Of a stretch of DNA of 64,000 nucleotides, positions 13,575 through 58,598 are shown one piece after another. The position numbers and the translations under genes are program-made. The stretch comes from Felis catus (taxonomy: Eukaryota), in contig NC_058386.1 of NCBI RefSeq assembly GCF_018350175.1, positions 45,694,001-45,758,000 of the forward strand, given 5' to 3'. The first letter of the stretch is position 1. Every line of letters starts with the position of its first letter. Under the pieces are notes generated by a model that was not told the DNA's origin, ran no database searches, and saw nothing but the letters and a program-made list of their open reading frames with translations.

Positions 13575-13593
13575 TGGCCAGTAGGTGGCAGTG
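13575..13593 (+). promoter_or_regulatory. CTCF core motif, unit 1
   Basis: tggccagtaggtggcagtg fits the CTCF consensus TGGCCASYAGRKGGCRS. Confidence 0.85.
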
Positions 13594-13668
13594 TTGCGCA
13601 CTGTACCAGTTCGGACCACCTCTTCCCCCGCCTTCCGAGTTTGAAAAAACTCAGAGCTGCCTTCTTTT

Positions 13669-13720
13669 AAAAAAAAAAAAACAAACAAACAAACAATAAC
13701 AACAACAACAAAACCAAACA
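13669..13720. repeat. Compound A(n)/(CAAA)n/(CAA)n tract, once per unit, variable between units
   Basis: Differs in structure at ~13669, 20092, 26520, 52247 and 58674. Confidence 0.9.
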
Positions 13721-13929
13721 CAGGACCTTCCTTTTACGCATGCGCGCTTTTGGCTGCCCTGGCTGGAAATAGGTTTTTTCTACGTGTTAGGGACCCAATA
13801 AAACATGCAGCCCTGGGATAAAATCTTTCTACCTTTCAACCTGCTTTTCTTAAACTGCTGCCGAGGTTCTTCACCAACTTGGATGTCTGCGTCTCTAAGT
13901 CGTCTGCTTTTTGGCTTTTCTCCACACGT

Positions 13930-14140
13930 AGTGATTACCAGGCGCGGAGGGGAAGCGGTACTGGGGGGTTCTTAATGAAAGAGTACAAAGATACAGGTCG
14001 GATGATGGAAATTTTGGAAATGGATGATACTGGCGATAGTTGCACAACAGTGTGAACTTCCTGATGGAACCAACCGACGCTCATTTAAACATGCTTAACA
14101 TGGTACGTTTTATGTGATCGGTTTTAGTACCACAAAAGGG
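13930..14140 (+). mobile_element. Old L1 (L1MB-like) 3' UTR fragment embedded in every unit
   Basis: gtgattaccagg...ggaaatggatgatactggcgatagttgcacaacagtgtgaac...ttaacatggtacgttttatgtgat...taccacaaaa matches the L1MB-type 3' end. Confidence 0.75.
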
Positions 14141-15120
14141 AGAGAACACAGGTGACATAGGATAGAGTTTGTCCTAAATAAGTAGTTACACAAATAGGTG
14201 GAAATGAAATGCGGATTTCAAATAAGCCGTGAAAGAACCGGTAGATAACTACTGAAAAGGTACATTGCCCCTCTTGCCTTGCTTGATCTGGGTTGGCCTG
14301 CATTCCCTCCCCATTGTCTCATCGGGTCTCCCCCTTGGTACCTATTGCCTCAGTCAGTGTGCTGCTCTGGGCTGGAAGCAGTGCTCCTCTGTATCCGCGT
14401 GTGCGTGTGTAACAAGCACATTTATTGACAGTCAGGACCCTTTCTCTATGGGTGGCCTCCCACAATACATCCTGTGGTTTAGTTTCTACTCCCTTTTGTG
14501 GCTTGGGCTTTTTTCCTCTTGAGTCAGATGGATGAAGCTTCAGTTACCCTGGTAACCATTTTTCTCTTTTTAAATCATCTCAACGTCTCATCACAAAAAG
14601 ACAAGGAGAGGGAGACAAGTGCTTTCCCATCTATCCTGGACCTTCAGGCAAGCTGACGCCTGAGACTGAGTGACCCAGTGAGGAGCTGCAGAAGAATGTT
14701 GCCATGACAACAGAATGGCTCACCCCCTTCCGGCACACAGCCCCTTCTCCCTCCCTCTCACTGCCTGATAGATCTCACTTCAGAATGGGAACGTGCTTTG
14801 GCTAGGACTGAAGGGATAGGTGTATCGTAGAGGATGGAAGGAGAGAGGTATAATCCTGAGATGCCTTCAGAAGGAACTGGGGGAGGAACCACAGCCTCCC
14901 CAAAAAAAGCATCCTGCACAACAGTGAGGTCCCAGAAGGCTACGGAAGCAATGAAAGCAGAGTAGCTCTAATGTGTTTGTGATTTTCTCCAGCCCTAAAG
15001 GATGCTACAGCATTGTATGCATGGCTCAGGCCCTGGAAAAGGGGGCCTGTGTTGTTAAAGGAGAATGGAGCCTGGCATCACTCGTGGAGGGCATGACAGA
15101 CTTGAGAAGGACCTGCTCAC

Positions 15121-15222
15121 CTCAGTGACAGCTCTTATGAGTTACTCCGCTGTGTCTGTCTGGTCTGCTCTTCCTTCTGTGCTCTGCTTTGGGGGTCCAT
15201 TTCTGGGACATGAAACGTTGTC
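15121..15222 (-). other. Predicted 102-nt non-coding exon, one per unit (also 21549, 27980, 34411, 40843, 47278, 53703, 60121)
   Basis: Minus-strand acceptor cctctcctttaactag| and donor GAG|gtgagc; both conserved in the old copy at 4786-4890. Confidence 0.55.
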
Positions 15223-16336
15223 CTAGTTAAAGGAGAGGACAAGGCAAGGATGCCCCATCCTCCTCTAACATGGACTGATTGGAGGGTGGACAGAGCAGGG
15301 GCCTGTGGGGATGGTGAGCTGGGATCACAGATTCACCAGTGCTCCTCAGACCACAAGGGCACGGTGGGTAATTGATTCTCTCTGGCTGATGTGATCTTCA
15401 TGATTATTCACTCTCAGGACTACACAGAAAAGGAGCCAAAACCCCCACTGAATTCATTGATGGTCTGCTAAGCATCTTTGATATCAATCACGTGACTGGT
15501 CTAGCTGAGGAAGTGCTCAGTCGCTCAGATTTCCACCACACCTTCCTTCTTGCCTCCAAGTGGGGAAGGTGTATGTGTGGCTTACAAGTCTCCCCGGGTG
15601 GTGCTGGAATGGGGTGTATGAAATCCTTATGTTGCTCACAGTGTCCTGGGTGGTTTCTGAGGGAAGGAGGACTCTTGTGTCCCTGGTCCACCTGGTGAAG
15701 TGACCTGCACCACCTTGCATGTGGCTGGTGTAACCTGCTTTTTCCTCTCTCCTCTTGGCCAGTACCTGCTGCTTCCTGGCTGACCCAGCCTCAGCTCACC
15801 TGTGTTGGCATGTGGAGACCTCTTGGATTCTTGGTCTCAACGTCCATCACTTCTGTGGGAAGGGCTGTTGCTCCACAGCCTCAGCTGCAGGGTCACCTAG
15901 TCTGCTGCATGCTTAGTCCTCCTTCATTAACCCCTGATGGGGAGTCACTCACTTTCCACATTTCCTTACCTGGGGATGCAGCCTCTGGAGGGTCACAGCA
16001 CAGCAGGAGCCACGATCAGCTCCAGAAAGCTAAGTTCCTAAACTTCAGCCATCCCTCTGCCCAAAGAGACTGCTGGGTCAGCCTGCAAAGTGAACTCCTC
16101 TGAGTCCCAAACGCAAATCGGTGCAAAATCCTTTCCTCCACTTGTCTGATACATCTCACTTGTCCCCTCCCATTCAGGGGAGTCTGACCTGAGAGCCTTA
16201 CCTCCATCGGCCACCTCTTTGTGTCATGTACTCCTCCAATACTGGGAGACAACATTCATCTTTGCTTGACCTTCATGCTGACAAGACTCCTATAGAGTAT
16301 ATCCAGATCCCAAAGGGAAAGCTTTAGGATTTGCTT

Positions 16337-16365
16337 TTATTATTATTAATTATTATTATTATTAA
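16337..16365. repeat. (TTA)n microsatellite, once per unit
   Basis: Interrupted by an extra A in units 1-5, pure in units 6-8. Confidence 0.9.
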
Positions 16366-16617
16366 GCAAAAAGGGATTGGCTAGTTGAGAAAGAAACATA
16401 AAAGAGAGAGGATTACCAGTCAGTCATGCACCCTTGTGCCATTGTCAGTACGGACGATCTATAAAAGTAAACTCAGAGTTCAAAGACAGACACCATGTTT
16501 TAAAAGGGTCCTAGGAGATGCTTGTCAGCAATTGTAACATCAGTACCCAGAGAGCTTCAATCCTAAATCCTCTGCTCCCACCAGCACCTGGATACTCGGC
16601 AGCAGAGATGAACTTAC

Positions 16618-16832
16618 CCAAAGCTTGTGATGTTTTCCAAGGGTTCTGGGGCAAATCTGGGTGTGTCTTCCTAGGTGACTAGTCCAGGAGTATTTGGAGG
16701 TTTGGCAACCTTTTTTCCAGTCTCCTGTTTACCACATAATGAATTAAAACAGCAGCACGGAGACTGGCTCCATAGTTTAATCGTTCAAAGTAACTACTTT
16801 TCTCATTACCGGGGGAAGCACAGTCTACATGA
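16618..16832 (-). other. Predicted 215-nt non-coding exon, one per unit (also 23046, 29477, 35908, 42340, 48774, 55199, 61617)
   Basis: Minus-strand acceptor ctttaattctgttttccag| and donor TGG|gtaagt; both conserved in the old copy at 10490-10713. Confidence 0.6.
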
Positions 16833-17101
16833 CTGGAAAACAGAATTAAAGAACAACTGCCCTAAAGGTAAAATCCCCAAAATGAAAGTGTTTGCTTGAG
16901 AACTTCCCATTCTGGGCACAATGCCTTTAGTGGCCTTCCTGCTGGAGTTACAGTACAGGTTCCTGGCTCGGTCCTAACCAGGACAGTTTCTCCCTAGCTA
17001 CTTCCATGGGTGTGGGTCCCATACAGACAATACACGTGGGAACACTCTGGCCTCCAGCAGCTCTTCTCAGGCTCCTGATTCTCCCACAGGCAGTCACTCA
17101 C

Positions 17102-17156
17102 AATGCGAAGCAATGATTTATCAAACATCCTGAGAACTCCTGGTGCCAGCTTTGTT
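17102..17156 (-). other. Possible 55-nt exon, one per unit
   Basis: Acceptor ctattttcag| and donor ATT|gtgagt; equivalent sites in the old copy at 10982-11039 (ttttctattctcag|, |gtgagc). Confidence 0.4.
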
Positions 17157-17581
17157 CTGAAAATAGTTTCATTCACCTTACGGGCACATGCCCTGACTGT
17201 CCTAAGTGCAGATGGAGAAACCAAGTCACAGGGACACTAAGGAACGCGCCTGCTGCTATGCAGCCTGCGAGTTCACTAGATGAAGTCTTGAGAGCACTGC
17301 TGCCCACCCTAGGTGTCCTTATGATGGGCCAACCTCTTCTCTTTCTTTCTCTCATTCATCATGGGTATCTCATTTTAAGCAGCAAGTGAAGTAATTTAAC
17401 GACTGAGAAGAAAGTTTTTTTGTGTGTCATTAGTACAAACACCTCAAAACCTGCAGGAGTTACCATGGGGCACACGTGTTCCTGTGGGTTTAAAGGGAGA
17501 TCATCCAGGAACCCTCCCCCGCCCCAGTGATACCCTTTCAGTAACCCACAACAAAGCAACAACAGGTGTCAGGTGACCTTT

Positions 17582-18940
17582 TATTCGGCATTCCATAACA
17601 TTAATGAGAGCCTCTCTTAATAGGTGTGTGGTGCTCTTGTACAAGCTGGTCACGTAGCACTTATCTGGGGAGTGAGAGAATACAAACCAACCAACCAACC
17701 AACCAACCAAGGAATAAGCAAATTAGTGGGCTGTTAGGAAGAAAATAACCCAGGTCCTAGGCCAGGAACAACCTACTTTACACAAGGTGGTCACGGAGAG
17801 CCTCTCTGAGGAGGCAATAATGGAGCAGAAACCAGAAGGTTAGAAGGAACCCACCATGTAAGGATCCAGGGAGAGACTCTTCCAGGCAGCGACGACTGTG
17901 ATCACCAGTGTTCTAAGGAGGGAAGAAGCATGTGCAAGGAACAGGAGTAGGCCAGAGTTACTGCCGTGAAGACAAGAGATGAGCAGATTGTTCGGATACG
18001 AAAACAGTAGCAGTAGATGAGCACAGAACGGGATGGATGGATACAGGATGTTTTCAGAAGATCGAATCCAGAGGACGTGGTGCTGGGTTGCAGTGGAGAC
18101 CAAAGGAACACGTCACGTGAAGAGGCGTGCTTGGGACATGTTAAGTGTCTGCTCCCTTCTGGTCATCCAGCAAAGACACAGACAAATGTGGGTCTCAGGG
18201 GACAGGTTGATGCATGAGGTACGAACGTGGGAGGTCCCGTTGTGTCCATGCTCTGTGCTGGCACCAAGGATGAAACAACCCACAGAGAGAGTGTAGATGG
18301 GAAGGGCCCTGTTAAAAGCCCTGTGGAATAGGGAGTGAGCAATAAACACTGACAAGGAGCACAGTGGCCACTGGGGTTGCGAGAACATCACCCAAAGAGT
18401 AAAGTTTCAAATAGGCCAAAATACAAATTAGAAGAAAGGGAGGGAGGGACATTTTCAAGAACCAGGCAATTGTTAAGTGTACCAGAGCTATCTGAGAGGT
18501 ACAGTAGGTTGAGGAGAGGACATCATCAAAGGGATTCACTGGTGCCCTTGACAGCTGTTTTCATTTGGGGGGCAGGCTGATAGAAGCTGGACTGGAGAAG
18601 TTAGCAAAAAAAAAAAAAAAATGGTTACAGAACAAGGGAAGACTTGCTGTTTACAGCAAGCGAAATGTGGCAGTGTCTCAGAAAGATATGGGATAAGGGA
18701 TGGCTTTACGTTTTACTGCCTCTTGTATCATAGATAACAGAATGATGGAGAAATAAATGGATAGGTGATAATTGGAATCATTGCAAAGTCCTACTCCTCC
18801 TCCAGAAGATGGGCATGGGATCCAGGTGAAGGGCCTGGCCTCAGGTAGGATAAGGTCCTTTATCCCACAGGGATAGCAGAGATACAGGTGCAGATCAGGT
18901 GTTGCTGTGAAGTGGTGAGAGTTCCTGTCTGATAACTGCT
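17582..18940 (-). mobile_element. Ancient LINE-2 embedded in every unit (contains (AACC)n and A(n) tracts)
   Basis: L2 3' end-like ttattcggcattccataacattaatgagagcctct, followed by ggtggtcacggagagcctctctgaggagg, cttccaggcag and ggtgcccttgacag, typical antisense L2 phrases. Confidence 0.75.
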
Positions 18941-19998
18941 CTTTTTTCTTTTCTTCTTCTTCTTCTTCTTCTTCTTCTTTTTAATGTATTACCATTGAAC
19001 TTCTTGAGAAGCGTGGGTCATGGAGCACTAGAAGGTTACTGCAGATAGAGAAAAGATACAGGTCAGGAGGTTGCAGGATTTCGTCTTCATTAGGGTGTAC
19101 CAGGAGAGGAGAGAGGAAGGAGCAAAGACCTGTTTTGCGCGGGACAATTTATAGCCCCTTAAGCTGGCCTAATAGAATGTGACATGACCTAGTGGCCATG
19201 GAACCGGGGGTTCCCTAAAGGGCTTAATGCCTAGGCTGTAGGCGCAGTAGAGGGAGGGGGCTGGAGAACAGGCCTTTTGGGGGTGATGAGAGAGAGGAAT
19301 GCTAGACAGCGACTCCAGGGAGGGGAGCGGGGTTCCTGATGTCCAGGGCCCAAGGCAGGTCCATGGGCAGCCGGATATTCGTGTTGGGGAGAACAACCCT
19401 GAGGACGGAGAGGACCGGGGGTGGCCGGTTCGTCTTCTAGGGCCTTGATAGGCCTGGAGGCAGCAGGGGAGGGAGGGCTGAGAGGAGGATAGCAACTGTG
19501 CCTTGGGACCAACGTTCACAGGCTGGAGTGGGCAGAACAATGACCAGGGGATTCGGACACGCCTCGCCCAAAGGACGGTCTGAGAGTCCGGGGATCGGGG
19601 AATAGCAGCCGGATAACAGGGGTTTGGGGCCTTGGACGAGTATGGAAACCGTCTTCAGAGCTGGGCACACAGACTGGCAAGGACCTCACTCAGTCGCCGG
19701 AACCAGGCTCAGACCCTCACAATTGGAACGCATCCCGAAGCCCTGCCTTTTCCTCTACCGGGCGCCGGAACTTCCGGACGCGGGCCTTCCTGCTTCTGTT
19801 GGCTTAGTTCCGGGGCGGGACCGTAGAAGGCTATTGTGCCGAAGACCGTTCGGCCGGGCCACTTCGATTGTACCGCACCCTTCGCTCCCCCGCAGCAGCA
19901 TTCCTCCTTGCCACCTCAGCTATGATCTGCAGGGCTCTTTACAGGCGAGCAGAGGAAACGATGGATTTTCCTTTGTGATGTGTGTCGTTCCGTTTCTC

Positions 19999-20017
19999 TG
20001 GCCAGTAGGTGGCAGTG
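19999..20017 (+). promoter_or_regulatory. CTCF core motif, unit 2
   Basis: tggccagtaggtggcagtg. Confidence 0.85.
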
Positions 20018-23000
20018 TTGCGCACTGTACCAGTTCGGACCACCTCTTCCCCCGCCTTCCGAGTTTGAAAGAACTCAGAGCTGCCTTCTTTAAAAAAAAA
20101 AAAAAAAAAAAAACAAACAAACAAAACAACAACAACAAAAACCAAACACAGGACCTTCCTTTTACGCATGCGCGCTTTTGGCTGCCCTGGCTGGAAATAG
20201 GTTTTTTCTACGTGTTAGGGACCCAATAAAACATGCAGCCCTGGGATAAAATCTTTCTACCTTTCAACCTGCTTTTCTTAAACTGCTGCCGAGGTTCTTC
20301 ACCAACTTGGATGTCTGCGTCTCTAAGTCGTCTGCTTTTTGGCTTTTCTCCACACGTAGTGATTACCAGGCGCGGAGGGGAAGCGGTACTGGGGGGTTCT
20401 TAATGAAAGAGTACAAAGATACAGGTCGGATGATGGAAATTTTGGAAATGGATGATACTGGCGATAGTTGCACAACAGTGTGAACTTCCTGATGGAACCA
20501 ACCGACGCTCATTTAAACATGCTTAACATGGTACGTTTTATGTGATCGGTTTTAGTACCACAAAAGGGAGAGAACACAGGTGACATAGGATAGAGTTTGT
20601 CCTAAATAAGTAGTTACACAAATAGGTGGAAATGAAATGCGGATTTCAAATAAGCCGTGAAAGAACCGGTAGATAACTACTGAAAAGGTACATTGCCCCT
20701 CTTGCCTTGCTTGATCTGGGTTGGCCTGCATTCCCTCCCCATTGTCTCATCGGGTCTCCCCCTTGGTACCTATTGCCTCAGTCAGTGTGCTGCTCTGGGC
20801 TGGAAGCAGTGCTCCTCTGTATCCGCGTGTGCGTGTGTAACAAGCACATTTATTGACAGTCAGGACCCTTTCTCTATGGGTGGCCTCCCACAATACATCC
20901 TGTGGTTTAGTTTCTACTCCCTTTTGTGGCTTGGGCTTTTTTCCTCTTGAGTCAGATGGATGAAGCTTCAGTTACCCTGGTAACCATTTTTCTCTTTTTA
21001 AATCATCTCAACGTCTCATCACAAAAAGACAAGGAGAGGGAGACAAGTGCTTTCCCATCTATCCTGGACCTTCAGGCAAGCTGACGCCTGAGACTGAGTG
21101 ACCCAGTGAGGAGCTGCAGAAGAATGTTGCCATGACAACAGAATGGCTCACCCCCTTCCGGCACACAGCCCCTTCTCCCTCCCTCTCACTGCCTGATAGA
21201 TCTCACTTCAGAATGGGAACGTGCTTTGGCTAGGACTGAAGGGATAGGTGTATCGTAGAGGATGGAAGGAGAGAGGTATAATCCTGAGATGCCTTCAGAA
21301 GGAACTGGGGGAGGAACCACAGCCTCCCCAAAAAAAGCATCCTGCACAACAGTGAGGTCCCAGAAGGCTACGGAAGCAATGAAAGCAGAGTAGCTCTAAT
21401 GTGTTTGTGATTTTCTCCAGCCCTAAAGGATGCTACAGCATTGTATGCATGGCTCAGGCCCTGGAAAAGGGGGCCTGTGTTGTTAAAGGAGAATGGAGCC
21501 TGGCATCACTCGTGGAGGGCATGACAGACTTGAGAAGGACCTGCTCACCTCAGTGACAGCTCTTATGAGTTACTCCGCTGTGTCTGTCTGGTCTGCTCTT
21601 CCTTCTGTGCTCTGCTTTGGGGGTCCATTTCTGGGACATGAAACGTTGTCCTAGTTAAAGGAGAGGACAAGGCAAGGATGCCCCATCCTCCTCTAACATG
21701 GACTGATTGGAGGGTGGACAGAGCAGGGGCCTGTGGGGATGGTGAGCTGGGATCACAGATTCACCAGTGCTCCTCAGACCACAAGGGCACGGTGGGTAAT
21801 TGATTCTCTCTGGCTGATGTGATCTTCATGATTATTCACTCTCAGGACTACACAGAAAAGGAGCCAAAACCCCCACTGAATTCATTGATGGTCTGCTAAG
21901 CATCTTTGATATCAATCACGTGACTGGTCTAGCTGAGGAAGTGCTCAGTCGCTCAGATTTCCACCACACCTTCCTTCTTGCCTCCAAGTGGGGAAGGTGT
22001 ATGTGTGGCTTACAAGTCTCCCCGGGTGGTGCTGGAATGGGGTGTATGAAATCCTTATGTTGCTCACAGTGTCCTGGGTGGTTTCTGAGGGAAGGAGGAC
22101 TCTTGTGTCCCTGGTCCACCTGGTGAAGTGACCTGCACCACCTTGCATGTGGCTGGTGTAACCTGCTTTTTCCTCTCTCCTCTTGGCCAGTACCTGCTGC
22201 TTCCTGGCTGACCCAGCCTCAGCTCACCTGTGTTGGCATGTGGAGACCTCTTGGATTCTTGGTCTCAACGTCCATCACTTCTGTGGGAAGGGCTGTTGCT
22301 CCACAGCCTCAGCTGCAGGGTCACCTAGTCTGCTGCATGCTTAGTCCTCCTTCATTAACCCCTGATGGGGAGTCACTCACTTTCCACATTTCCTTACCTG
22401 GGGATGCAGCCTCTGGAGGGTCACAGCACAGCAGGAGCCACGATCAGCTCCAGAAAGCTAAGTTCCTAAACTTCAGCCATCCCTCTGCCCAAAGAGACTG
22501 CTGGGTCAGCCTGCAAAGTGAACTCCTCTGAGTCCCAAACGCAAATCGGTGCAAAATCCTTTCCTCCACTTGTCTGATACATCTCACTTGTCCCCTCCCA
22601 TTCAGGGGAGTCTGACCTGAGAGCCTTACCTCCATCGGCCACCTCTTTGTGTCATGTACTCCTCCAATACTGGGAGACAACATTCATCTTTGCTTGACCT
22701 TCATGCTGACAAGACTCCTATAGAGTATATCCAGATCCCAAAGGGAAAGCTTTAGGATTTGCTTTTATTATTATTAATTATTATTATTATTAAGCAAAAA
22801 GGGATTGGCTAGTTGAGAAAGAAACATAAAAGAGAGAGGATTACCAGTCAGTCATGCACCCTTGTGCCATTGTCAGTACGGACGATCTATAAAAGTAAAC
22901 TCAGAGTTCAAAGACAGACACCATGTTTTAAAAGGGTCCTAGGAGATGCTTGTCAGCAATTGTAACATCAGTACCCAGAGAGCTTCAATCCTAAATCCTC

Positions 23001-26000
23001 TGCTCCCACCAGCACCTGGATACTCGGCAGCAGAGATGAACTTACCCAAAGCTTGTGATGTTTTCCAAGGGTTCTGGGGCAAATCTGGGTGTGTCTTCCT
23101 AGGTGACTAGTCCAGGAGTATTTGGAGGTTTGGCAACCTTTTTTCCAGTCTCCTGTTTACCACATAATGAATTAAAACAGCAGCACGGAGACTGGCTCCA
23201 TAGTTTAATCGTTCAAAGTAACTACTTTTCTCATTACCGGGGGAAGCACAGTCTACATGACTGGAAAACAGAATTAAAGAACAACTGCCCTAAAGGTAAA
23301 ATCCCCAAAATGAAAGTGTTTGCTTGAGAACTTCCCATTCTGGGCACAATGCCTTTAGTGGCCTTCCTGCTGGAGTTACAGTACAGGTTCCTGGCTCGGT
23401 CCTAACCAGGACAGTTTCTCCCTAGCTACTTCCATGGGTGTGGGTCCCATACAGACAATACACGTGGGAACACTCTGGCCTCCAGCAGCTCTTCTCAGGC
23501 TCCTGATTCTCCCACAGGCAGTCACTCACAATGCGAAGCAATGATTTATCAAACATCCTGAGAACTCCTGGTGCCAGCTTTGTTCTGAAAATAGTTTCAT
23601 TCACCTTACGGGCACATGCCCTGACTGTCCTAAGTGCAGATGGAGAAACCAAGTCACAGGGACACTAAGGAACGCGCCTGCTGCTATGCAGCCTGCGAGT
23701 TCACTAGATGAAGTCTTGAGAGCACTGCTGCCCACCCTAGGTGTCCTTATGATGGGCCAACCTCTTCTCTTTCTTTCTCTCATTCATCATGGGTATCTCA
23801 TTTTAAGCAGCAAGTGAAGTAATTTAACGACTGAGAAGAAAGTTTTTTTGTGTGTCATTAGTACAAACACCTCAAAACCTGCAGGAGTTACCATGGGGCA
23901 CACGTGTTCCTGTGGGTTTAAAGGGAGATCATCCAGGAACCCTCCCCCGCCCCAGTGATACCCTTTCAGTAACCCACAACAAAGCAACAACAGGTGTCAG
24001 GTGACCTTTTATTCGGCATTCCATAACATTAATGAGAGCCTCTCTTAATAGGTGTGTGGTGCTCTTGTACAAGCTGGTCACGTAGCACTTATCTGGGGAG
24101 TGAGAGAATACAAACCAACCAACCAACCAACCAACCAAGGAATAAGCAAATTAGTGGGCTGTTAGGAAGAAAATAACCCAGGTCCTAGGCCAGGAACAAC
24201 CTACTTTACACAAGGTGGTCACGGAGAGCCTCTCTGAGGAGGCAATAATGGAGCAGAAACCAGAAGGTTAGAAGGAACCCACCATGTAAGGATCCAGGGA
24301 GAGACTCTTCCAGGCAGCGACGACTGTGATCACCAGTGTTCTAAGGAGGGAAGAAGCATGTGCAAGGAACAGGAGTAGGCCAGAGTTACTGCCGTGAAGA
24401 CAAGAGATGAGCAGATTGTTCGGATACGAAAACAGTAGCAGTAGATGAGCACAGAACGGGATGGATGGATACAGGATGTTTTCAGAAGATCGAATCCAGA
24501 GGACGTGGTGCTGGGTTGCAGTGGAGACCAAAGGAACACGTCACGTGAAGAGGCGTGCTTGGGACATGTTAAGTGTCTGCTCCCTTCTGGTCATCCAGCA
24601 AAGACACAGACAAATGTGGGTCTCAGGGGACAGGTTGATGCATGAGGTACGAACGTGGGAGGTCCCGTTGTGTCCATGCTCTGTGCTGGCACCAAGGATG
24701 AAACAACCCACAGAGAGAGTGTAGATGGGAAGGGCCCTGTTAAAAGCCCTGTGGAATAGGGAGTGAGCAATAAACACTGACAAGGAGCACAGTGGCCACT
24801 GGGGTTGCGAGAACATCACCCAAAGAGTAAAGTTTCAAATAGGCCAAAATACAAATTAGAAGAAAGGGAGGGAGGGACATTTTCAAGAACCAGGCAATTG
24901 TTAAGTGTACCAGAGCTATCTGAGAGGTACAGTAGGTTGAGGAGAGGACATCATCAAAGGGATTCACTGGTGCCCTTGACAGCTGTTTTCATTTGGGGGG
25001 CAGGCTGATAGAAGCTGGACTGGAGAAGTTAGCAAAAAAAAAAAAAAAATGGTTACAGAACAAGGGAAGACTTGCTGTTTACAGCAAGCGAAATGTGGCA
25101 GTGTCTCAGAAAGATATGGGATAAGGGATGGCTTTACGTTTTACTGCCTCTTGTATCATAGATAACAGAATGATGGAGAAATAAATGGATAGGTGATAAT
25201 TGGAATCATTGCAAAGTCCTACTCCTCCTCCAGAAGATGGGCATGGGATCCAGGTGAAGGGCCTGGCCTCAGGTAGGATAAGGTCCTTTATCCCACAGGG
25301 ATAGCAGAGATACAGGTGCAGATCAGGTGTTGCTGTGAAGTGGTGAGAGTTCCTGTCTGATAACTGCTCTTTTTTCTTTTCTTCTTCTTCTTCTTCTTCT
25401 TCTTCTTTTTAATGTATTACCATTGAACTTCTTGAGAAGCGTGGGTCATGGAGCACTAGAAGGTTACTGCAGATAGAGAAAAGATACAGGTCAGGAGGTT
25501 GCAGGATTTCGTCTTCATTAGGGTGTACCAGGAGAGGAGAGAGGAAGGAGCAAAGACCTGTTTTGCGCGGGACAATTTATAGCCCCTTAAGCTGGCCTAA
25601 TAGAATGTGACATGACCTAGTGGCCATGGAACCGGGGGTTCCCTAAAGGGCTTAATGCCTAGGCTGTAGGCGCAGTAGAGGGAGGGGGCTGGAGAACAGG
25701 CCTTTTGGGGGTGATGAGAGAGAGGAATGCTAGACAGCGACTCCAGGGAGGGGAGCGGGGTTCCTGATGTCCAGGGCCCAAGGCAGGTCCATGGGCAGCC
25801 GGATATTCGTGTTGGGGAGAACAACCCTGAGGACGGAGAGGACCGGGGGTGGCCGGTTCGTCTTCTAGGGCCTTGATAGGCCTGGAGGCAGCAGGGGAGG
25901 GAGGGCTGAGAGGAGGATAGCAACTGTGCCTTGGGACCAACGTTCACAGGCTGGAGTGGGCAGAACAATGACCAGGGGATTCGGACACGCCTCGCCCAAA

Positions 26001-26426: not shown

Positions 26427-26445
26427 TGGCCAGTAGGTGGCAGTG
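26427..26445 (+). promoter_or_regulatory. CTCF core motif, unit 3
   Basis: tggccagtaggtggcagtg. Confidence 0.85.
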
Positions 26446-45724: not shown

Positions 45725-45743
45725 TGGCCAGTAGGTGGCAGTG
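45725..45743 (+). promoter_or_regulatory. CTCF core motif, unit 6
   Basis: tggccagtaggtggcagtg. Confidence 0.85.
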
Positions 45744-48700: not shown

Positions 48701-51700
48701 ACCCAGAGAGCTTCAATCCTAAATCCTCTGCTCCCACCAGCACCTGGATACTCGGCAGCAGAGATGAACTTACCCAAAGCTTGTGATGTTTTCCAAGGGT
48801 TCTGGGGCAAATCTGGGTGTGTCTTCCTAGGTGACTAGTCCAGGAGTATTTGGAGGTTTGGCAACCTTTTTTCCAGTCTCCTGTTTACCACATAATGAAT
48901 TAAAACAGCAGCACGGAGACTGGCTCCATAGTTTAATCGTTCAAAGTAACTACTTTTCTCATTACCGGGGGAAGCACAGTCTACATGACTGGAAAACAGA
49001 ATTAAAGAACAACTGCCCTAAAGGTAAAATCCCCAAAATGAAAGTGTTTGCTTGAGAACTTCCCATTCTGGGCACAATGCCTTTAGTGGCCTTCCTGCTG
49101 GAGTTACAGTACAGGTTCCTGGCTCGGTCCTAACCAGGACAGTTTCTCCCTAGCTACTTCCATGGGTGTGGGTCCCATACAGACAATACACGTGGGAACA
49201 CTCTGGCCTCCAGCAGCTCTTCTCAGGCTCCTGATTCTCCCACAGGCAGTCACTCACAATGCGAAGCAATGATTTATCAAACATCCTGAGAACTCCTGGT
49301 GCCAGCTTTGTTCTGAAAATAGTTTCATTCACCTTACGGGCACATGCCCTGACTGTCCTAAGTGCAGATGGAGAAACCAAGTCACAGGGACACTAAGGAA
49401 CGCGCCTGCTGCTATGCAGCCTGCGAGTTCACTAGATGAAGTCTTGAGAGCACTGCTGCCCACCCTAGGTGTCCTTATGATGGGCCAACCTCTTCTCTTT
49501 CTTTCTCTCATTCATCATGGGTATCTCATTTTAAGCAGCAAGTGAAGTAATTTAACGACTGAGAAGAAAGTTTTTTTGTGTGTCATTAGTACAAACACCT
49601 CAAAACCTGCAGGAGTTACCATGGGGCACACGTGTTCCTGTGGGTTTAAAGGGAGATCATCCAGGAACCCTCCCCCGCCCCAGTGATACCCTTTCAGTAA
49701 CCCACAACAAAGCAACAACAGGTGTCAGGTGACCTTTTATTCGGCATTCCATAACATTAATGAGAGCCTCTCTTAATAGGTGTGTGGTGCTCTTGTACAA
49801 GCTGGTCACGTAGCACTTATCTGGGGAGTGAGAGAATACAAACCAACCAACCAACCAACCAACCAAGGAATAAGCAAATTAGTGGGCTGTTAGGAAGAAA
49901 ATAACCCAGGTCCTAGGCCAGGAACAACCTACTTTACACAAGGTGGTCACGGAGAGCCTCTCTGAGGAGGCAATAATGGAGCAGAAACCAGAAGGTTAGA
50001 AGGAACCCACCATGTAAGGATCCAGGGAGAGACTCTTCCAGGCAGCGACGACTGTGATCACCAGTGTTCTAAGGAGGGAAGAAGCATGTGCAAGGAACAG
50101 GAGTAGGCCAGAGTTACTGCCGTGAAGACAAGAGATGAGCAGATTGTTCGGATACGAAAACAGTAGCAGTAGATGAGCACAGAACGGGATGGATGGATAC
50201 AGGATGTTTTCAGAAGATCGAATCCAGAGGACGTGGTGCTGGGTTGCAGTGGAGACCAAAGGAACACGTCACGTGAAGAGGCGTGCTTGGGACATGTTAA
50301 GTGTCTGCTCCCTTCTGGTCATCCAGCAAAGACACAGACAAATGTGGGTCTCAGGGGACAGGTTGATGCATGAGGTACGAACGTGGGAGGTCCCGTTGTG
50401 TCCATGCTCTGTGCTGGCACCAAGGATGAAACAACCCACAGAGAGAGTGTAGATGGGAAGGGCCCTGTTAAAAGCCCTGTGGAATAGGGAGTGAGCAATA
50501 AACACTGACAAGGAGCACAGTGGCCACTGGGGTTGCGAGAACATCACCCAAAGAGTAAAGTTTCAAATAGGCCAAAATACAAATTAGAAGAAAGGGAGGG
50601 AGGGACATTTTCAAGAACCAGGCAATTGTTAAGTGTACCAGAGCTATCTGAGAGGTACAGTAGGTTGAGGAGAGGACATCATCAAAGGGATTCACTGGTG
50701 CCCTTGACAGCTGTTTTCATTTGGGGGGCAGGCTGATAGAAGCTGGACTGGAGAAGTTAGCAAAAAAAAAAAAAAAAAATGGTTACAGAACAAGGGAAGA
50801 CTTGCTGTTTACAGCAAGCGAAATGTGGCAGTGTCTCAGAAAGATATGGGATAAGGGATGGCTTTACGTTTTACTGCCTCTTGTATCATAGATAACAGAA
50901 TGATGGAGAAATAAATGGATAGGTGATAATTGGAATCATTGCAAAGTCCTACTCCTCCTCCAGAAGATGGGCATGGGATCCAGGTGAAGGGCCTGGCCTC
51001 AGGTAGGATAAGGTCCTTTATCCCACAGGGATAGCAGAGATACAGGTGCAGATCAGGTGTTGCTGTGAAGTGGTGAGAGTTCCTGTCTGATAACTGCTCT
51101 TTTTTCTTTTCTTCTTCTTCTTCTTCTTCTTCTTTTTAATGTATTACCATTGAACTTCTTGAGAAGCGTGGGTCATGGAGCACTAGAAGGTTACTGCAGA
51201 TAGAGAAAAGATACAGGTCAGGAGGTTGCAGGATTTCGTCTTCATTAGGGTGTACCAGGAGAGGAGAGAGGAAGGAGCAAAGACCTGTTTTGCGCGGGAC
51301 AATTTATAGCCCCTTAAGCTGGCCTAATAGAATGTGACATGACCTAGTGGCCATGGAACCGGGGGTTCCCTAAAGGGCTTAATGCCTAGGCTGTAGGCGC
51401 AGTAGAGGGAGGGGGCTGGAGAACAGGCCTTTTGGGGGTGATGAGAGAGAGGAATGCTAGACAGCGACTCGAGGGAGGGGAGCGGGGTTCCTGATGTCCA
51501 GGGCCCAAGGCAGGTCCATGGGCAGCTGGATATTCGTGTTGGGGAGAACAACCCTGAGGACGGAGAGGACCGGGGGTGGCCGGTTCGTCTTCTAGGGCCT
51601 TGATAGGCCTGGAGGCAGCAGGGGAGGGAGGGCTGAGAGGAGGATAGCAACTGTGCCTTGGGACCAACGTTCACAGGCTGGAGTGGGCAGAACAATGACC

Positions 51701-52153
51701 AGGGGATTCGGACACGCCTCGCCCAAAGGACGGTCTGAGAGTCCGGGGATCGGGGAATAGCAGCCGGATAACAGGGGTTTGGGGCCTTGGACGAGTATGG
51801 AAACCGTCTTCAGAGCTGGGCACACAGACTGGCAAGGACCTCACTCAGTCGCCGGAACCAGGCTCAGACCCTCACAATTGGAACGCATCCCGAAGCCCTG
51901 CCTTTTCCTCTACCGGGCGCCGGAACTTCCGGACGCGGGCCTTCCTGCTTCTGTTGGCTTAGTTCCGGGGCGGGACCGTAGAAGGCTATTGTGCCGAAGA
52001 CCGTTCGGCCGGGCCACTTCGATTGTACCGCACCCTTCGCTCCCCCGCAGCAGCATTCCTCCTTGCCACCTCAGCTATGATCTGCAGGGCTCTTTACAGG
52101 CGAGCAGAGGAAACGATGGATTTTCCTTTGTGATGTGTGTCGTTCCGTTTCTC

Positions 52154-52172
52154 TGGCCAGTAGGTGGCAGTG
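52154..52172 (+). promoter_or_regulatory. CTCF core motif, unit 7
   Basis: tggccagtaggtggcagtg. Confidence 0.85.
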
Positions 52173-55100
52173 TTGCGCACTGTACCAGTTCGGACCACCT
52201 CTTCCCCCGCCTTCCGAGTTTGAAAGAACTCAGAGCTGCCTTCTTTAAAAAAAAAAAAAAAAAAAAAACAAAAACAAAAAAAACAACAACAAAAACCAAA
52301 CACAGGACCTTCCTTTTACGCATGCGCGCTTTTGGCTGCCCTGGCTGGAAATAGGTTTTTTCTACGTGTTAGGGACCCAATAAAACATGCAGCCCTGGGA
52401 TAAAATCTTTCTACCTTTCAACCTGCTTTTCTTAAACTGCTGCCGAGGTTCTTCACCAACTTGGATGTCTGCGTCTCTAAGTCGTCTGCTTTTTGGCTTT
52501 TCTCCACACGTAGTGATTACCAGGCGCGGAGGGGAAGCGGTACTGGGGGGTTCTTAATGAAAGAGTACAAAGATACAGGTCGGATGATGGAAATTTTGGA
52601 AATGGATGATACTGGCGATAGTTGCACAACAGTGTGAACTTCCTGATGGAACCAACCGATGCTCATTTAAACATGCTTAACATGGTACGTTTTATGTGAT
52701 CGGTTTTAGTACCACAAAAGGGAGAGAACACAGGTGACATAGGATAGAGTTTGTCCTAAATAAGTAGTTACACAAATAGGTGGAAATGAAATGCGGATTT
52801 CAAATAAGCCGTGAAAGAACCGGTAGATAACTACTGAAAAGGTACATTGCCCCTCTTGCCTTGCTTGATCTGGGTTGGCCTGCATTCCCTCCCCATTGTC
52901 TCATCGGGTCTCCCCCTTGGTACCTATTGCCTCAGTCAGTGTGCTGCTCTGGGCTGGAAGCAGTGCTCCTCTGTATCCGCGTGTGCGTGTGTAACAAGCA
53001 CATTTATTGACAGTCAGGACCCTTTCTCTATGGGTGGCCTCCCACAATACATCCTGTGGTTTAGTTTCTACTCCCTTTTGTGGCTTGGGCTTTTTTCCTC
53101 TTGAGTCAGATGGATGAAGCTTCAGTTACCCTGGTAACCATTTTTCTCTTTTTAAATCATCTCAACGTCTCATCACAAAAAGACAAGGAGAGGGAGACAA
53201 GTGCTTTCCCATCTATCCTGGACCTTCAGGCAAGCTGACGCCTGAGACTGAGTGACCCAGTGAGGAGCTGCAGAAGAATGTTGCCATGACAACAGAATGG
53301 CTCACCCCCTTCCGGCACACAGCCCCTTCTCCCTCCCTCTCACTGCCTGATAGATCTCACTTCAGAATGGGAACGTGCTTTGGCTAGGACTGAAGGGATA
53401 GGTGTATCGTAGAGGATGGAAGGAGAGAGGTATAATCCTGAGATGCCTTCAGAAGGAACTGGGGGAGGAACCACAGCCTCCCCAAAAAAAGCATCCTGCA
53501 CAACAGTGAGGTCCCAGAAGGCTACGGAAGCAATGAAAGCAGAGTAGCTCTAATGTGTTTGTGATTTTCTCCAGCCCTAAAGGATGCTACAGCATTGTAT
53601 GCATGGCTCAGGCCCTGGAAAAGGGGGCCTGTGTTGTTAAAGGAGAATGGAGCCTGGCATCACTCGTGGAGGGCATGACAGACTTGAGAAGGACCTGCTC
53701 ACCTCAGTGACAGCTCTTATGAGTTACTCCGCTGTGTCTGTCTGGTCTGCTCTTCCTTCTGTGCTCTGCTTTGGGGGTCCATTTCTGGGACATGAAACGT
53801 TGTCCTAGTTAAAGGAGAGGACAAGGCAAGGATGCCCCATCCTCCTCTAACATGGACTGATTGGAGGGTGGACAGAGCAGGGGCCTGTGGGGATGGTGAG
53901 CTGGGATCACAGATTCACCAGTGCTCCTCAGACCACAAGGGCACGGTGGGTAATTGATTCTCTCTGGCTGATGTGATCTTCATGATTATTCACTCTCAGG
54001 ACTACACAGAAAAGGAGCCAAAACCCCCACTGAATTCATTGATGGTCTGCTAAGCATCTTTGATATCAATCACGTGACTGGTCTAGCTGAGGAAGTGCTC
54101 AGTCGCTCAGATTTCCACCACACCTTCCTTCTTGCCTCCAAGTGGGGAAGGTGTATGTGTGGCTTACAAGTCTCCCCGGGTGGTGCTGGAATGGGGTGTA
54201 TGAAATCCTTATGTTGCTCACAGTGTCCTGGGTGGTTTCTGAGGGAAGGAGGACTCTTGTGTCCCTGGTCCACCTGGTGAAGTGACCTGCACCACCTTGC
54301 ATGTGGCTGGTGTAACCTGCTTTTTCCTCTCTCCTCTTGGCCAGTACCTGCTGCTTCCTGGCTGACCCAGCCTCAGCTCACCTGTGTTGGCATGTGGAGA
54401 CCTCTTGGATTCTTGGTCTCAACGTCCATCACTTCTGTGGGAAGGGCTGTTGCTCCACAGCCTCAGCTGCAGGGTCACCTAGTCTGCTGCATGCTTAGTC
54501 CTCCTTCATTAACCCCTGATGGGGAGTCACTCACTTTCCACATTTCCTTACCTGGGGATGCAGCCTCTGGAGGGTCACAGCACAGCAGGAGCCACGATCA
54601 GCTCCAGAAAGCTAAGTTCCTAAACTTCAGCCATCCCTCTGCCCAAAGAGACTGCTGGGTCAGCCTGCAAAGTGAACTCCTCTGAGTCCCAAACGCAAAT
54701 CGGTGCAAAATCCTTTCCTCCACTTGTCTGATACATCTCACTTGTCCCCTCCCATTCAGGGGAGTCTGACCTGAGAGCCTTACCTCCATCGGCCACCTCT
54801 TTGTGTCATGTACTCCTCCAATACTGGGAGACAACATTCATCTTTGCTTGACCTTCATGCTGACAAGACTCCTATAGAGTATATCCAGATCCCAAAGGGA
54901 AAGCTTTAGGATTTGCTTTTATTATTATTATTATTATTATTATTAAGCAAAAAGGGATTGGCTAGTTGAGAAAGAAACATAAAAGAGAGAGGATTACCAG
55001 TCAGTCATGCACCCTTGTGCCATTGTCAGTACGGACGATCTATAAAAGTAAACTCAGAGTTCAAAGACAGACACCATGTTTTAAAAGGGTCCTAGGAGAT

Positions 55101-58100
55101 GCTTGTCAGCAATTGTAACATCAGTACCCAGAGAGCTTCAATCCTAAATCCTCTGCTCCCACCAGCACCTGGATACTCGGCAGCAGAGATGAACTTACCC
55201 AAAGCTTGTGATGTTTTCCAAGGGTTCTGGGGCAAATCTGGGTGTGTCTTCCTAGGTGACTAGTCCAGGAGTATTTGGAGGTTTGGCAACCTTTTTTCCA
55301 GTCTCCTGTTTACCACATAATGAATTAAAACAGCAGCACGGAGACTGGCTCCATAGTTTAATCGTTCAAAGTAACTACTTTTCTCATTACCGGGGGAAGC
55401 ACAGTCTACATGACTGGAAAACAGAATTAAAGAACAACTGCCCTAAAGGTAAAATCCCCAAAATGAAAGTGTTTGCTTGAGAACTTCCCATTCTGGGCAC
55501 AATGCCTTTAGTGGCCTTCCTGCTGGAGTTACAGTACAGGTTCCTGGCTCGGTCCTAACCAGGACAGTTTCTCCCTAGCTACTTCCATGGGTGTGGGTCC
55601 CATACAGACAATACACGTGGGAACACTCTGGCCTCCAGCAGCTCTTCTCAGGCTCCTGATTCTCCCACAGGCAGTCACTCACAATGCGAAGCAATGATTT
55701 ATCAAACATCCTGAGAACTCCTGGTGCCAGCTTTGTTCTGAAAATAGTTTCATTCACCTTACGGGCACATGCCCTGACTGTCCTAAGTGCAGATGGAGAA
55801 ACCAAGTCACAGGGACACTAAGGAACGCGCCTGCTGCTATGCAGCCTGCGAGTTCACTAGATGAAGTCTTGAGAGCACTGCTGCCCACCCTAGGTGTCCT
55901 TATGATGGGCCAACCTCTTCTCTTTCTTTCTCTCATTCATCATGGGTATCTCATTTTAAGCAGCAAGTGAAGTAATTTAACGACTGAGAAGAAAGTTTTT
56001 TTGTGTGTCATTAGTACAAACACCTCAAAACCTGCAGGAGTTACCATGGGGCACACGTGTTCCTGTGGGTTTAAAGGGAGATCATCCAGGAACCCTCCCC
56101 CGCCCCAGTGATACCCTTTCAGTAACCCACAACAAAGCAACAACAGGTGTCAGGTGACCTTTTATTCGGCATTCCATAACATTAATGAGAGCCTCTCTTA
56201 ATAGGTGTGTGGTGCTCTTGTACAAGCTGGTCACGTAGCACTTATCTGGGGAGTGAGAGAATACAAACCAACCAACCAACCAACCAACCAAGGAATAAGC
56301 AAATTAGTGGGCTGTTAGGAAGAAAATAACCCAGGTCCTAGGCCAGGAACAACCTACTTTACACAAGGTGGTCACGGAGAGCCTCTCTGAGGAGGCAATA
56401 ATGGAGCAGAAACCAGAAGGTTAGAAGGAACCCACCATGTAAGGATCCAGGGAGAGACTCTTCCAGGCAGCGACGACTGTGATCACCAGTGTTCTAAGGA
56501 GGGAAGAAGCATGTGCAAGGAACAGGAGTAGGCCAGAGTTACTGCCGTGAAGACAAGAGATGAGCAGATTGTTCGGATACGAAAACAGTAGCAGTAGATG
56601 AGCACAGAACGGGATGGATGGATACAGGATGTTTTCAGAAGATCGAATCCAGAGGACGTGGTGCTGGGTTGCAGTGGAGACCAAAGGAACACGTCACGTG
56701 AAGAGGCGTGCTTGGGACATGTTAAGTGTCTGCTCCCTTCTGGTCATCCAGCAAAGACACAGACAAATGTGGGTCTCAGGGGACAGGTTGATGCATGAGG
56801 TACGAACGTGGGAGGTCCCGTTGTGTCCATGCTCTGTGCTGGCACCAAGGATGAAACAACCCACAGAGAGAGTGTAGATGGGAAGGGCCCTGTTAAAAGC
56901 CCTGTGGAATAGGGAGTGAGCAATAAACACTGACAAGGAGCACAGTGGCCACTGGGGTTGCGAGAACATCACCCAAAGAGTAAAGTTTCAAATAGGCCAA
57001 AATACAAATTAGAAGAAAGGGAGGGAGGGACATTTTCAAGAACCAGGCAATTGTTAAGTGTACCAGAGCTATCTGAGAGGTACAGTAGGTTGAGGAGAGG
57101 ACATCATCAAAGGGATTCACTGGTGCCCTTGACAGCTGTTTTCATTTGGGGGGCAGGCTGATAGAAGCTGGACTGGAGAAGTTAGCAAAAAAAAAAAAAA
57201 AAAAATGGTTACAGAACAAGGGAAGACTTGCTGTTTACAGCAAGCGAAATGTGGCAGTGTCTCAGAAAGATATGGGATAAGGGATGGCTTTACGTTTTAC
57301 TGCCTCTTGTATCATAGATAACAGAATGATGGAGAAATAAATGGATAGGTGATAATTGGAATCATTGCAAAGTCCTACTCCTCCTCCAGAAGATGGGCAT
57401 GGGATCCAGGTGAAGGGCCTGGCCTCAGGTAGGATAAGGTCCTTTATCCCACAGGGATAGCAGAGATACAGGTGCAGATCAGGTGTTGCTGTGAAGTGGT
57501 GAGAGTTCCTGTCTGATAACTGCTCTTTTTTCTTTTCTTCTTCTTCTTCTTCTTCTTCTTTTTAATGTATTACCATTGAACTTCTTGAGAAGCGTGGGTC
57601 ATGGAGCACTAGAAGGTTACTGCAGATAGAGAAAAGATACAGGTCAGGAGGTTGCAGGATTTCGTCTTCATTAGGGTGTACCAGGAGAGGAGAGAGGAAG
57701 GAGCAAAGACCTGTTTTGCGCGGGACAATTTATAGCCCCTTAAGCTGGCCTAATAGAATGTGACATGACCTAGTGGCCATGGAACCGGGGGTTCCCTAAA
57801 GGGCTTAATGCCTAGGCTGTAGGCGCAGTAGAGGGAGGGGGCTGGAGAACAGGCCTTTTGGGGGTGATGAGAGAGAGGAATGCTAGACAGCGACTCGAGG
57901 GAGGGGAGCGGGGTTCCTGATGTCCAGGGCCCAAGGCAGGTCCATGGGCAGCTGGATATTCGTGTTGGGGAGAACAACCCTGAGGACGGAGAGGACCGGG
58001 GGTGGCCGGTTCGTCTTCTAGGGCCTTGATAGGCCTGGAGGCAGCAGGGGAGGGAGGGCTGAGAGGAGGATAGCAACTGTGCCTTGGGACCAACGTTCAC

Positions 58101-58579
58101 AGGCTGGAGTGGGCAGAACAATGACCAGGGGATTCGGACACGCCTCGCCCAAAGGACGGTCTGAGAGTCCGGGGATCGGGGAATAGCAGCCGGATAACAG
58201 GGGTTTGGGGCCTTGGACGAGTATGGAAACCGTCTTCAGAGCTGGGCACACAGACTGGCAAGGACCTCACTCAGTCGCCGGAACCAGGCTCAGACCCTCA
58301 CAATTGGAACGCATCCCGAAGCCCTGCCTTTTCCTCTACCGGGCGCCGGAACTTCCGGACGCGGGCCTTCCTGCTTCTGTTGGCTTAGTTCCGGGGCGGG
58401 ACCGTAGAAGGCTATTGTGCCGAAGACCGTTCGGCCGGGCCACTTCGATTGTACCGCACCCTTCGCTCCCCCGCAGCAGCATTCCTCCTTGCCACCTCAG
58501 CTATGATCTGCAGGGCTCTTTACAGGCGAGCAGAGGAAACGATGGATTTTCCTTTGTGATGTGTGTCGTTCCGTTTCTC

Positions 58580-58598
58580 TGGCCAGTAGGTGGCAGTG
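58580..58598 (+). promoter_or_regulatory. CTCF core motif, unit 8
   Basis: tggccagtaggtggcagtg. Confidence 0.85.

What the first reader, a model, noticed from the sequence alone, without database searches (positions are those of the whole stretch)
13575..58598. Eight co-oriented, evenly spaced, invariant CTCF motifs
Seen: tggccagtaggtggcagtg at 13575, 19999, 26427, 32858, 39290, 45725, 52154 and 58580, all on +, plus a 2-mismatch relic at 7621. The core lacks CpG, but a possible upstream module (tgtcgttcc; tgcggtatt in the old copy) contains one. Known: CTCF motif orientation determines the direction in which cohesin extrusion is blocked. Inference: a strong one-directional barrier or loop anchor whose strength scales with copy number and may be gated by methylation of the surrounding island.
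Basis: partly seen in the sequence, partly recalled or inferred. Interest (0 to 1): 0.7.

Follow-up and report, generated by a model that had tools for sequence, protein, structure and literature searches.

The report
CTCF repeat array on cat X
The eight sites are one CTCF-type motif copied along with a 6.4-kb block that repeats nine times between two mirror-image FAM156 genes on the cat X chromosome; the motif is old and likely a real, directional genome-folding anchor, but it is not the known DXZ4 or ICCE repeat and its binding is untested.

Summary
In detail: 8 exact matches plus the 7621 variant. Even spacing, shared strand and invariance come from a 6.43-kb tandem array of 9 copies (11343 to about 69790); 96% of 19-nt windows are invariant across the units. 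The array lies on the cat X chromosome, in the 82-kb spacer of a 61-kb-arm FAM156A/B palindrome. It is 3.5 Mb from ICCE and 48.7 Mb from DXZ4 and does not match their shared 34-bp motif better than ordinary CTCF sites do. The motif itself looks constrained: 6 of 7 diverged lineages of the unit keep it (neutral simulation P about 1e-4 to 8e-4, but 0.05 if branch lengths are halved). The locus holds 11 forward then 2 reverse sites, so it is convergent rather than one-directional. The proposed upstream module is out of register. There is no binding, methylation or Hi-C evidence. Verdict: an apparently undescribed CTCF-bearing X macrosatellite, likely amplified by unequal crossing-over, with its architectural role untested.

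The parts
1..7110 (.). Inner end of the left arm of a ~61.5-kb palindrome. The arm runs from about -54350 to 7110 and its mirror from 88884 to 150377 in the window frame; each arm carries one FAM156A/B ORF pointing at the spacer.
   Evidence: 99.57% identity; first arm-to-arm difference at 7111/88883; ORF
4748..7643 (.). Old, truncated paralog of the unit (partial body plus CpG-island part) straddling the arm/spacer junction
   Evidence: 67-71% identity to the young unit
7621..7639 (+). Old forward CTCF-type site (18.3 bits), about 500 bp inside the spacer; its diverged mirror counterpart is at 88313 (-), beyond the window
8060..11342 (.). Old diverged unit body (75-81% identical) interrupted by SINE and other high-copy inserts; joins the young array at 11343
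11343..64000 (.). Homogeneous tandem array of 6.43-kb units (arbitrary starts 12577, 19000, 25428, 31859, 38291, 44726, 51155, 57581, 64000). It continues past the window to about 69790 (9.1 units; ninth site at 64999 +). Further old sites beyond the window, in the window frame: 71997 (+, 23.6 bits), 82921 (-, 19.8), 88313 (-, 14.2).
12977..14176 (.). CpG island of unit 1 (unit positions 401-1600, CpG o/e 0.64-0.86 measured on unit 2); repeated in every unit
13295..13354 (+). Promoter-like elements: CCAAT-box position (intact CCAAT in 6 of 7 lineages, variant in the young unit) and paired ETS-type CCGGAA/TTCCGG words; motif names recalled
   Evidence: sequence; alignment
13559..13567 (+).
13575..13593 (+). 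CTCF core, copy 1 (24.3 bits, p 2.6e-9)
14421..14426 (-). AATAAA on the minus strand, kept in 5 of 5 paralogs that span it; possible poly(A) signal of a gene-like block (inferred)
   Evidence: position shown for unit 1; about 20852 in unit 2
18147..18165 (-). Weak reverse CTCF-like match in every unit (13.6 bits; background level)
19999..20017 (+). CTCF core, copy 2
26427..26445 (+). CTCF core, copy 3
32858..32876 (+). CTCF core, copy 4
39290..39308 (+). CTCF core, copy 5
45725..45743 (+). CTCF core, copy 6
52154..52172 (+). CTCF core, copy 7
58580..58598 (+). CTCF core, copy 8

Best explanation
This is a nine-copy 6.4-kb macrosatellite in the spacer of the FAM156A/B palindrome on the cat X, likely made by recent unequal crossing-over between older direct copies of a CpG-island unit that already carried one CTCF motif; the sites are likely bound and would stall cohesin arriving from the GPR173/TSPYL2 side, likely looping to the two reverse sites at the far end of the spacer. 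Shown: the array, its place, the old paralogs, motif retention and the orientation map. Inferred: the origin by unequal crossing-over (each edge joins an 80-85% diverged relative), selection on the motif, occupancy and loop direction (convergent rule). The motif predates the array, so the number of sites is most likely a by-product of amplifying a promoter-like block rather than a sign of selection for a barrier.
For: Array structure and edges. X linkage: the 127.8-Mb contig carries Xist exon 1. FAM156A/B in both arms; GPR173- and TSPYL2-like ORFs 116-125 kb past the array (names recalled from the sequences and matching the gene order in the PMC8327908 table). Seven lineages of the unit, all on X; 6 keep a motif of at least 14.2 bits at the homologous place, and the seventh (48.03 Mb) ends about 100 nt short of it and has lost its CpGs. 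Motif identity among five paralogs is 79% against 62% for the flanks. Neutral simulation: 2 of 20000 runs with all sites, 16 of 20000 with CpG columns removed. Word class enriched 610 to 1. One contig of an independent run (X4, record 20) spans the head-to-tail junction, and contig depth over the unit is 28-45 against 3-6 over the two-copy arm. Palindrome spacers are unstable (PMC8327919 passages). Convergent rule (PMC4840295 passages).
Against: No occupancy data. The two ChIP-labelled runs are flat across the unit (28.3 over the island and motif, 28.0 and 29.7 elsewhere); the antibody is unknown, they are contigs only and they look like one data set. The simulation gives P=0.054 if branch lengths are halved, its threshold is the observed minimum, and gene conversion between paralogs could mimic constraint. 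Another block about 470 nt upstream is more conserved than the motif: 21 of 457 windows that do not overlap the motif match or beat it. The scoring matrix is recalled. The upstream module, which raises insulator strength, is missing in register.
Confidence: 0.55

Rival explanations
1. A further inactive-X CTCF macrosatellite that works like DXZ4, ICCE or FROST: methylated on the active X, open and CTCF-bound on the inactive X, and serving as a superloop anchor or long-range boundary near the KDM5C escape region.
For: It is X-linked, tandem, CpG-island-bearing and co-oriented. Among the 76 genome-wide matches to a 14-nt word shared with DXZ4, the only tandem clusters are this array (9) and DXZ4 RA/RB (8+9). 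Its core scores higher on the recalled matrix than any DXZ4 or ICCE site. New CTCF repeats do arise on mammalian X chromosomes (FROST: 10.1101/2023.06.30.547175 passages). KDM5C is roughly 185 kb away (inferred).
Against: There is no DNA homology to cat DXZ4 or ICCE (blastn best E 0.2; nhmmer best E 0.31). The site has 16 of 34 mismatches to the DXZ4 motif, against 0-2 for DXZ4 monomers and 8-10 for ICCE; 14 of 60 generic sites do as well. No ATGGC (YY1-like, recalled) lies within 40 nt, unlike the DXZ4 and ICCE sites. The cat inactive X was reported as bipartite, hinged at DXZ4, at 500-kb resolution (PMC8327908 section 6), although this locus was unplaced in that assembly. No human inactive-X-specific cluster is named here (PMC12157683 passages: FAM156 0 hits).
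Confidence: 0.15
2. An amplified transcription unit: each block is a non-coding or decayed gene on the minus strand with a CpG-island promoter, and the CTCF site is only a promoter-flanking site that is unbound or architecturally unimportant in somatic cells.
For: The dispersed copies at 45.41 and 48.03 Mb stop 150-250 nt past a minus-strand AATAAA on one side and at or near the CTCF site on the other, as a duplicated gene would. Two splice-donor GTs are kept in 5 of 5 copies. The CCAAT- and ETS-type words are conserved. The copies lie in intervals that hold XAGE/SSX and PAGE genes in human (inferred). CpG o/e is 0.79-0.87 in three lineages.
Against: 0 of 143 unit ORFs reach a Pfam cut-off. 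There is no GAGE or SSXRD match in the unit, no homolog for the 161-aa island ORF among proteins of 88-282 aa, and no recognisable conserved reading frame. The invariant AATAAA is 1 of 14 invariant runs of 6 nt or more. In one single-cell RNA run (about 1 in 100 read, tissue unknown) depth was at most 5.7 on either strand and zero at the AATAAA.
Confidence: 0.25
3. Assembly artefact: one or two real units expanded by the assembler.
For: Units 2-5 differ by only 0-2 substitutions, and the region was unplaced in an earlier cat assembly.
Against: Units carry ordered, shared variants and different microsatellite lengths. An independent contig spans the junction, and contigs show about 5-9 times the arm depth (the tool warns that depth is not a copy number).
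Confidence: 0.03

Closest known systems
DXZ4 macrosatellite (felid RA/RB; PMC8662614, PMC3491370)
   Same: X-linked, homogeneous tandem array of kb-scale units with co-oriented CTCF motifs; shares the 12-mer TGGCAGTGTTGC.
   Different: Lies 48.7 Mb away from the DXZ4 locus. No unit homology, 16/34 mismatches to its motif, no YY1-like ATGGC. The unit is 49% GC with CpG o/e 0.34, against 68-69% and 0.66-0.69 for DXZ4.
ICCE repeat in NBDY (PMC6125249)
   Same: Xp tandem repeat of similar unit size (5.3 kb in this genome) and similar whole-unit CpG o/e (0.29) with CTCF motifs.
   Different: The cat ICCE is a separate array at 49.24-49.27 Mb behind the NBDY-like ORF. It carries DXZ4-type motifs in both orientations and has no homology to this unit.
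FROST (elephantid X; 10.1101/2023.06.30.547175) and mouse XE3 (as discussed in PMC8327908)
   Same: Lineage-restricted X-linked tandem repeats proposed to gain architectural roles.
   Different: Different loci. FROST marks a Hi-C superdomain boundary, whereas no boundary is known here.
X-palindrome spacers and ampliconic arrays (PMC8327919; FAM156 palindrome shared among apes, PMC11168930)
   Same: Arms more than 99% identical carrying FAM156, with a structurally unstable spacer.
   Different: The passages read give no CTCF array in the FAM156 spacer (PMC8327919 main text: FAM156 0, CTCF 0 hits). Human FAM156B and FAM156A gene ends are 38.7 kb apart, against about 108 kb between the two cat ORFs; the human spacer sequence could not be examined.

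Membership tests
DXZ4 | Located downstream of PLS3, compound RA/RB array in felids | tested here: not met
   A two-array locus with the published motif lies at 94.45-94.56 Mb; this array is at 45.71-45.76 Mb between FAM156 copies. PLS3 itself was not searched.
DXZ4/ICCE motif family | Match to the conserved 34-bp extended CTCF motif | tested here: not met
   16 mismatches for the young site and 15-19 for the old ones; DXZ4 monomers 0-2, ICCE 8-10; generic sites median 19, with 14 of 60 at 16 or fewer. The 3' 13 nt are slightly closer than average (6-9 of 13).
DXZ4/ICCE motif family | YY1 motif at or beside the CTCF site | tested here: not met
   No ATGGC/GCCAT within 40 nt in 3 of 3 sites checked; present at 4 of 4 DXZ4/ICCE sites (word recalled).
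ICCE | Tandem repeat inside NBDY, between UBQLN2 and SPIN3 | tested here: not met
   ICCE found separately at 49.239-49.273 Mb; SPIN family at 49.47-49.62 Mb.
Inactive-X superloop anchors (DXZ4, FIRRE, ICCE, FROST) | X-linked tandem cluster of CTCF motifs | tested here: met
Inactive-X superloop anchors (DXZ4, FIRRE, ICCE, FROST) | Female-specific hypomethylation and CTCF binding on the inactive X | not testable with these tools
   Only flat contig depth from ChIP-labelled runs of unknown target.
Inactive-X superloop anchors (DXZ4, FIRRE, ICCE, FROST) | Long-range contacts or a boundary in Hi-C | not testable with these tools
   The published cat map is bipartite at DXZ4; cat Hi-C resolution could not detect superloops.
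Macrosatellite (large homogeneous tandem repeat) | Head-to-tail kb-scale units, more than 99% identical, at one locus | tested here: met
   9.1 units of 6.43 kb; the eight complete young units are 99.5-100% identical; near-identical copies only at this locus.
Macrosatellite (large homogeneous tandem repeat) | Copy-number variation between individuals | tested here: inconclusive
   Unit-to-arm contig depth differs between runs, but the tool states that depth is not a copy number.
CTCF site with upstream (zinc finger 9-11) module | TGCAG-type module starting 14-15 nt before the core | tested here: not met
   the young site matches 3/9 and 1/9 at those offsets
GAGE/PAGE/XAGE or SSX cancer-testis gene arrays | GAGE (PF05831) or SSXRD (PF09514) coding exons in the unit | tested here: not met

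The most novel reading that the evidence does not exclude
A fourth CTCF macrosatellite on the felid X, unrelated to DXZ4 and ICCE. It would have arisen by amplifying an ordinary promoter-flanking CTCF site inside a palindrome spacer, and would act as a copy-number-tunable directional anchor on the inactive X or in male germ cells, beside the TSPYL2/KDM5C escape region. That would show an X superloop anchor being born from an unrelated sequence.
Probability: 0.15. Interest if true: 0.75.

Novelty: new member of a known kind. Interest (0 to 1): 0.38.

Why it matters
Published work proposes that long CTCF repeats emerge and vanish on mammalian X chromosomes and partition the inactive X, and DXZ4 divergence is a candidate cause of hybrid male sterility in cats. 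This array offers a test case of independent origin, with its single-copy ancestors still beside it. If it proves unbound or inert, it shows that CTCF clustering in a macrosatellite can be a passive result of spacer instability.

Tried and rejected
Identity with DXZ4 or ICCE: rejected by position, homology and motif. Structured RNA in the unit: Rfam over 1-21000 gave 2 sub-threshold matches. The 7621 site as the arm's gene-converted twin of 88313: rejected, because arm identity ends at 7110 and the two sites differ at 5 of 19 positions. The TT flank as a general CTCF preference: 51 of 601 non-array sites have it, near chance. The reversed control contains two CpGs and is not a fair null, so I used only the clustering. 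Earlier scan findings: none nearby, none by words, and two unrelated archaeal transposons sharing 3 of 180 words. Literature: searches returned no description of this array, judged from listings plus the passages cited. The 2023 felid single-haplotype paper and one CTCF motif paper were not held, and supplement file 1 of PMC8327908 was not searchable; the felid paper or that supplement could mention the array.
Full report
Observation. All nine positions are as reported, and chance does not give them. Self-alignment shows that the window from 11343 onward is a head-to-tail array with a period of 6424-6435 bp. Units 1-8 differ by 0-16 substitutions, with 18 variable columns in all, and 96% of 19-nt windows are invariant. 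Spacing, strand and invariance therefore describe the array rather than the motif. A ninth identical site lies at 64999, and the homogeneous part ends near 69790, giving 9.1 units. Coordinates above 64000 or below 1 are in the window frame (G000:C47 position minus 45694000).

Place. The window is G000:C47:45694001-45758000. This contig is 127.8 Mb long and carries Xist exon 1 at 60.05 Mb, so it is the X. The flanks form a palindrome of 99.57% identity, with arms from about -54350 to 7110 and from 88884 to 150377. Each arm has the same ORF; the left one has the PGC7_Stella domain and is, letter for letter, a protein named FAM156A/FAM156B-like of domestic cat. Both ORFs point at the spacer. GPR173- and TSPYL2-like ORFs follow on the right (names recalled, order as in the table). 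An earlier cat assembly had FAM156A unplaced (PMC8327908 supplement file 2), which may be why the array is not described.

Not DXZ4 or ICCE. Both were found elsewhere in this genome: two arrays at 94.45-94.56 Mb carrying the published DXZ4 34-mer with 0-2 mismatches, and a 5.3-kb array at 49.24-49.27 Mb behind an NBDY-like ORF with 8-10 mismatches. The unit has no alignable homology to either region. Its site has 16 mismatches to the 34-mer. In the first 60 of 610 generic cat CTCF words the median is 19, and 14 of 60 have 16 or fewer. The shared 12-mer is the right half of the core plus TTGC. The old paralogs' 3' flanks are slightly closer to DXZ4 than average (6-9 of 13), a weak hint only. 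The YY1-like word seen at DXZ4 and ICCE sites is absent.

The motif. On a recalled MA0139.1 matrix the site scores 24.3 of 28.7 bits, and 11 of 60 generic sites reach that score. Independently of the matrix, the word class CCASYAGRTGGCAGYR occurs 610 times in the genome against 1 for its reversal. The core has no CpG. Only some CTCF motifs have a CpG placed to block binding (PMC4840295 passages), so any gating would be indirect, through the ~1.2-kb island. The proposed upstream modules start at -16 and -18. Generic cat sites show the module at -15/-14, as do two published module-bearing sites (PMC11417384 Table 1), so that claim is not supported.

Older than the array. Four diverged paralogs in the spacer (sites at 7621+, 71997+, 82921-, 88313-) and two dispersed copies on X (45.41 and 48.03 Mb) share the island, at about 55-79% identity over the spacer alignment. 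Six of seven lineages keep a site of at least 14.2 bits; the seventh ends before it and has the lowest CpG content. Simulating neutral change from the young site along the paralog tree reaches the observed minimum in 2 of 20000 runs, in 16 of 20000 with CpG columns removed, and in 5.4% if those branch lengths are halved. I read this as probable but not proven constraint. The threshold is post hoc, conversion is possible, and a block about 470 nt upstream is better conserved.

Orientation. The spacer holds 11 forward sites followed by 2 reverse sites, plus one weak reverse match per unit at background level. Under the convergent rule, bound forward sites would stall cohesin coming from the right and pair with 82921 and 88313 or with reverse sites further on, such as 198879 (19.1 bits). 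Co-oriented sites give direction-dependent stripes at mouse Dxz4 (PMC6985041 passages). That is an analogy, not evidence for this locus.

What the unit is. It has CCAAT- and ETS-type words in an island, a CTCF site at one edge and about 5 kb of body. The dispersed copies are delimited like a minus-strand gene, ending 150-250 nt past a conserved AATAAA, with some conserved donors. No protein family or conserved frame was found, and AATAAA invariance is not exceptional. Both array edges join 80-85% diverged relatives within the same part of the unit, which fits unequal crossing-over between old direct copies. Palindrome spacers are known sites of rearrangement (PMC8327919).

Public runs. Twenty of 24 listed runs, from 13 studies, hold the unit or part of it. 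Four were laid on 4000-17800. One contig of X4 spans the tandem junction. Contig depth was 28-45 over the unit and 3-6 over the two-copy arm, which argues against an artefact but is not a copy number. X14 and X15 (ChIP-labelled, unknown target, near-identical numbers) show no peak at the site. X24 (single-cell RNA, about 1% read) has a few reads on both strands around the island and none at the AATAAA, too few to call a transcript.

Literature seen. PMC6125249: parts 2-4 of 6. PMC8327908: passages, section 6 and supplement file 2 parts 2 and 5. Passages only: PMC8662614, PMC3491370, PMC8327919, PMC11168930, PMC12157683, PMC6985041, PMC4364777, PMC11417384, PMC4840295 and the mammoth preprint. 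Abstract only: PMC6258728, which reports that Dxz4 and Firre structures are dispensable for silencing and escape in mouse; this lowers the expected effect of any such anchor. Eight searches found no description of this array; one likely paper was not held.

Verdict. This is a real, apparently undescribed CTCF-bearing macrosatellite, a new member of a known kind but not of the DXZ4/ICCE family. The best reading is a recently amplified old promoter-plus-CTCF block that likely acts as a local directional anchor (0.55). Rivals are an amplified transcription unit with an incidental site (0.25), an inactive-X superloop anchor (0.15) and an artefact (0.03). Interest 0.38.

Noticed in passing
about 470 nt upstream of each motif (about 19525-19555 in unit 2): The best-conserved block among five paralogs (88% identity) contains AACAATG, which resembles a SOX-type site (label recalled); its role is unexplained.
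   Followed up: partly
G000:C47:45.411-45.420 Mb (L063, L064) and 48.032-48.036 Mb (L075): Two dispersed single copies of the unit (70-80% identical), showing an old X-linked duplicated family of unknown nature.
   Followed up: partly
G000:C47:49.239-49.273 Mb (L044-L048): Cat ICCE here is a homogeneous 5.3-kb array of about 6.3 copies (98-99% identical), whereas PMC6125249 describes human ICCE units as degenerate.
   Followed up: partly
G000:C47:49.306-49.388 Mb (L051-L059): Mirror-symmetric repeat pairs and twin CTCF-like sites at 49312084 (+) and 49382315 (-) suggest another palindrome between NBDY and SPIN3.
   Followed up: no
window 7111 and 88883 (window frame): Arm-to-arm identity stops abruptly inside the island paralog, about 500 bp before the CTCF sites, which are left unconverted.
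   Followed up: partly
window 8325-8968, 10139-10361; also 70992-71408 and -93518 to -92863 in the window frame: Related high-copy inserts in the old units that look like solo LTR fragments (label recalled; described only).
   Followed up: no
G000:C47:45.585-45.587 and 45.613 Mb: GAGE-family exons (one over and two just under the Pfam cut-off) left of the palindrome, where human has XAGE5 and XAGE3; the PMC8327908 table lists no cat ortholog for these.
   Followed up: no
window 12484-12556: The TTC microsatellite has 24.7 copies at the left array edge against 10.7-11.7 in internal units.
   Followed up: no
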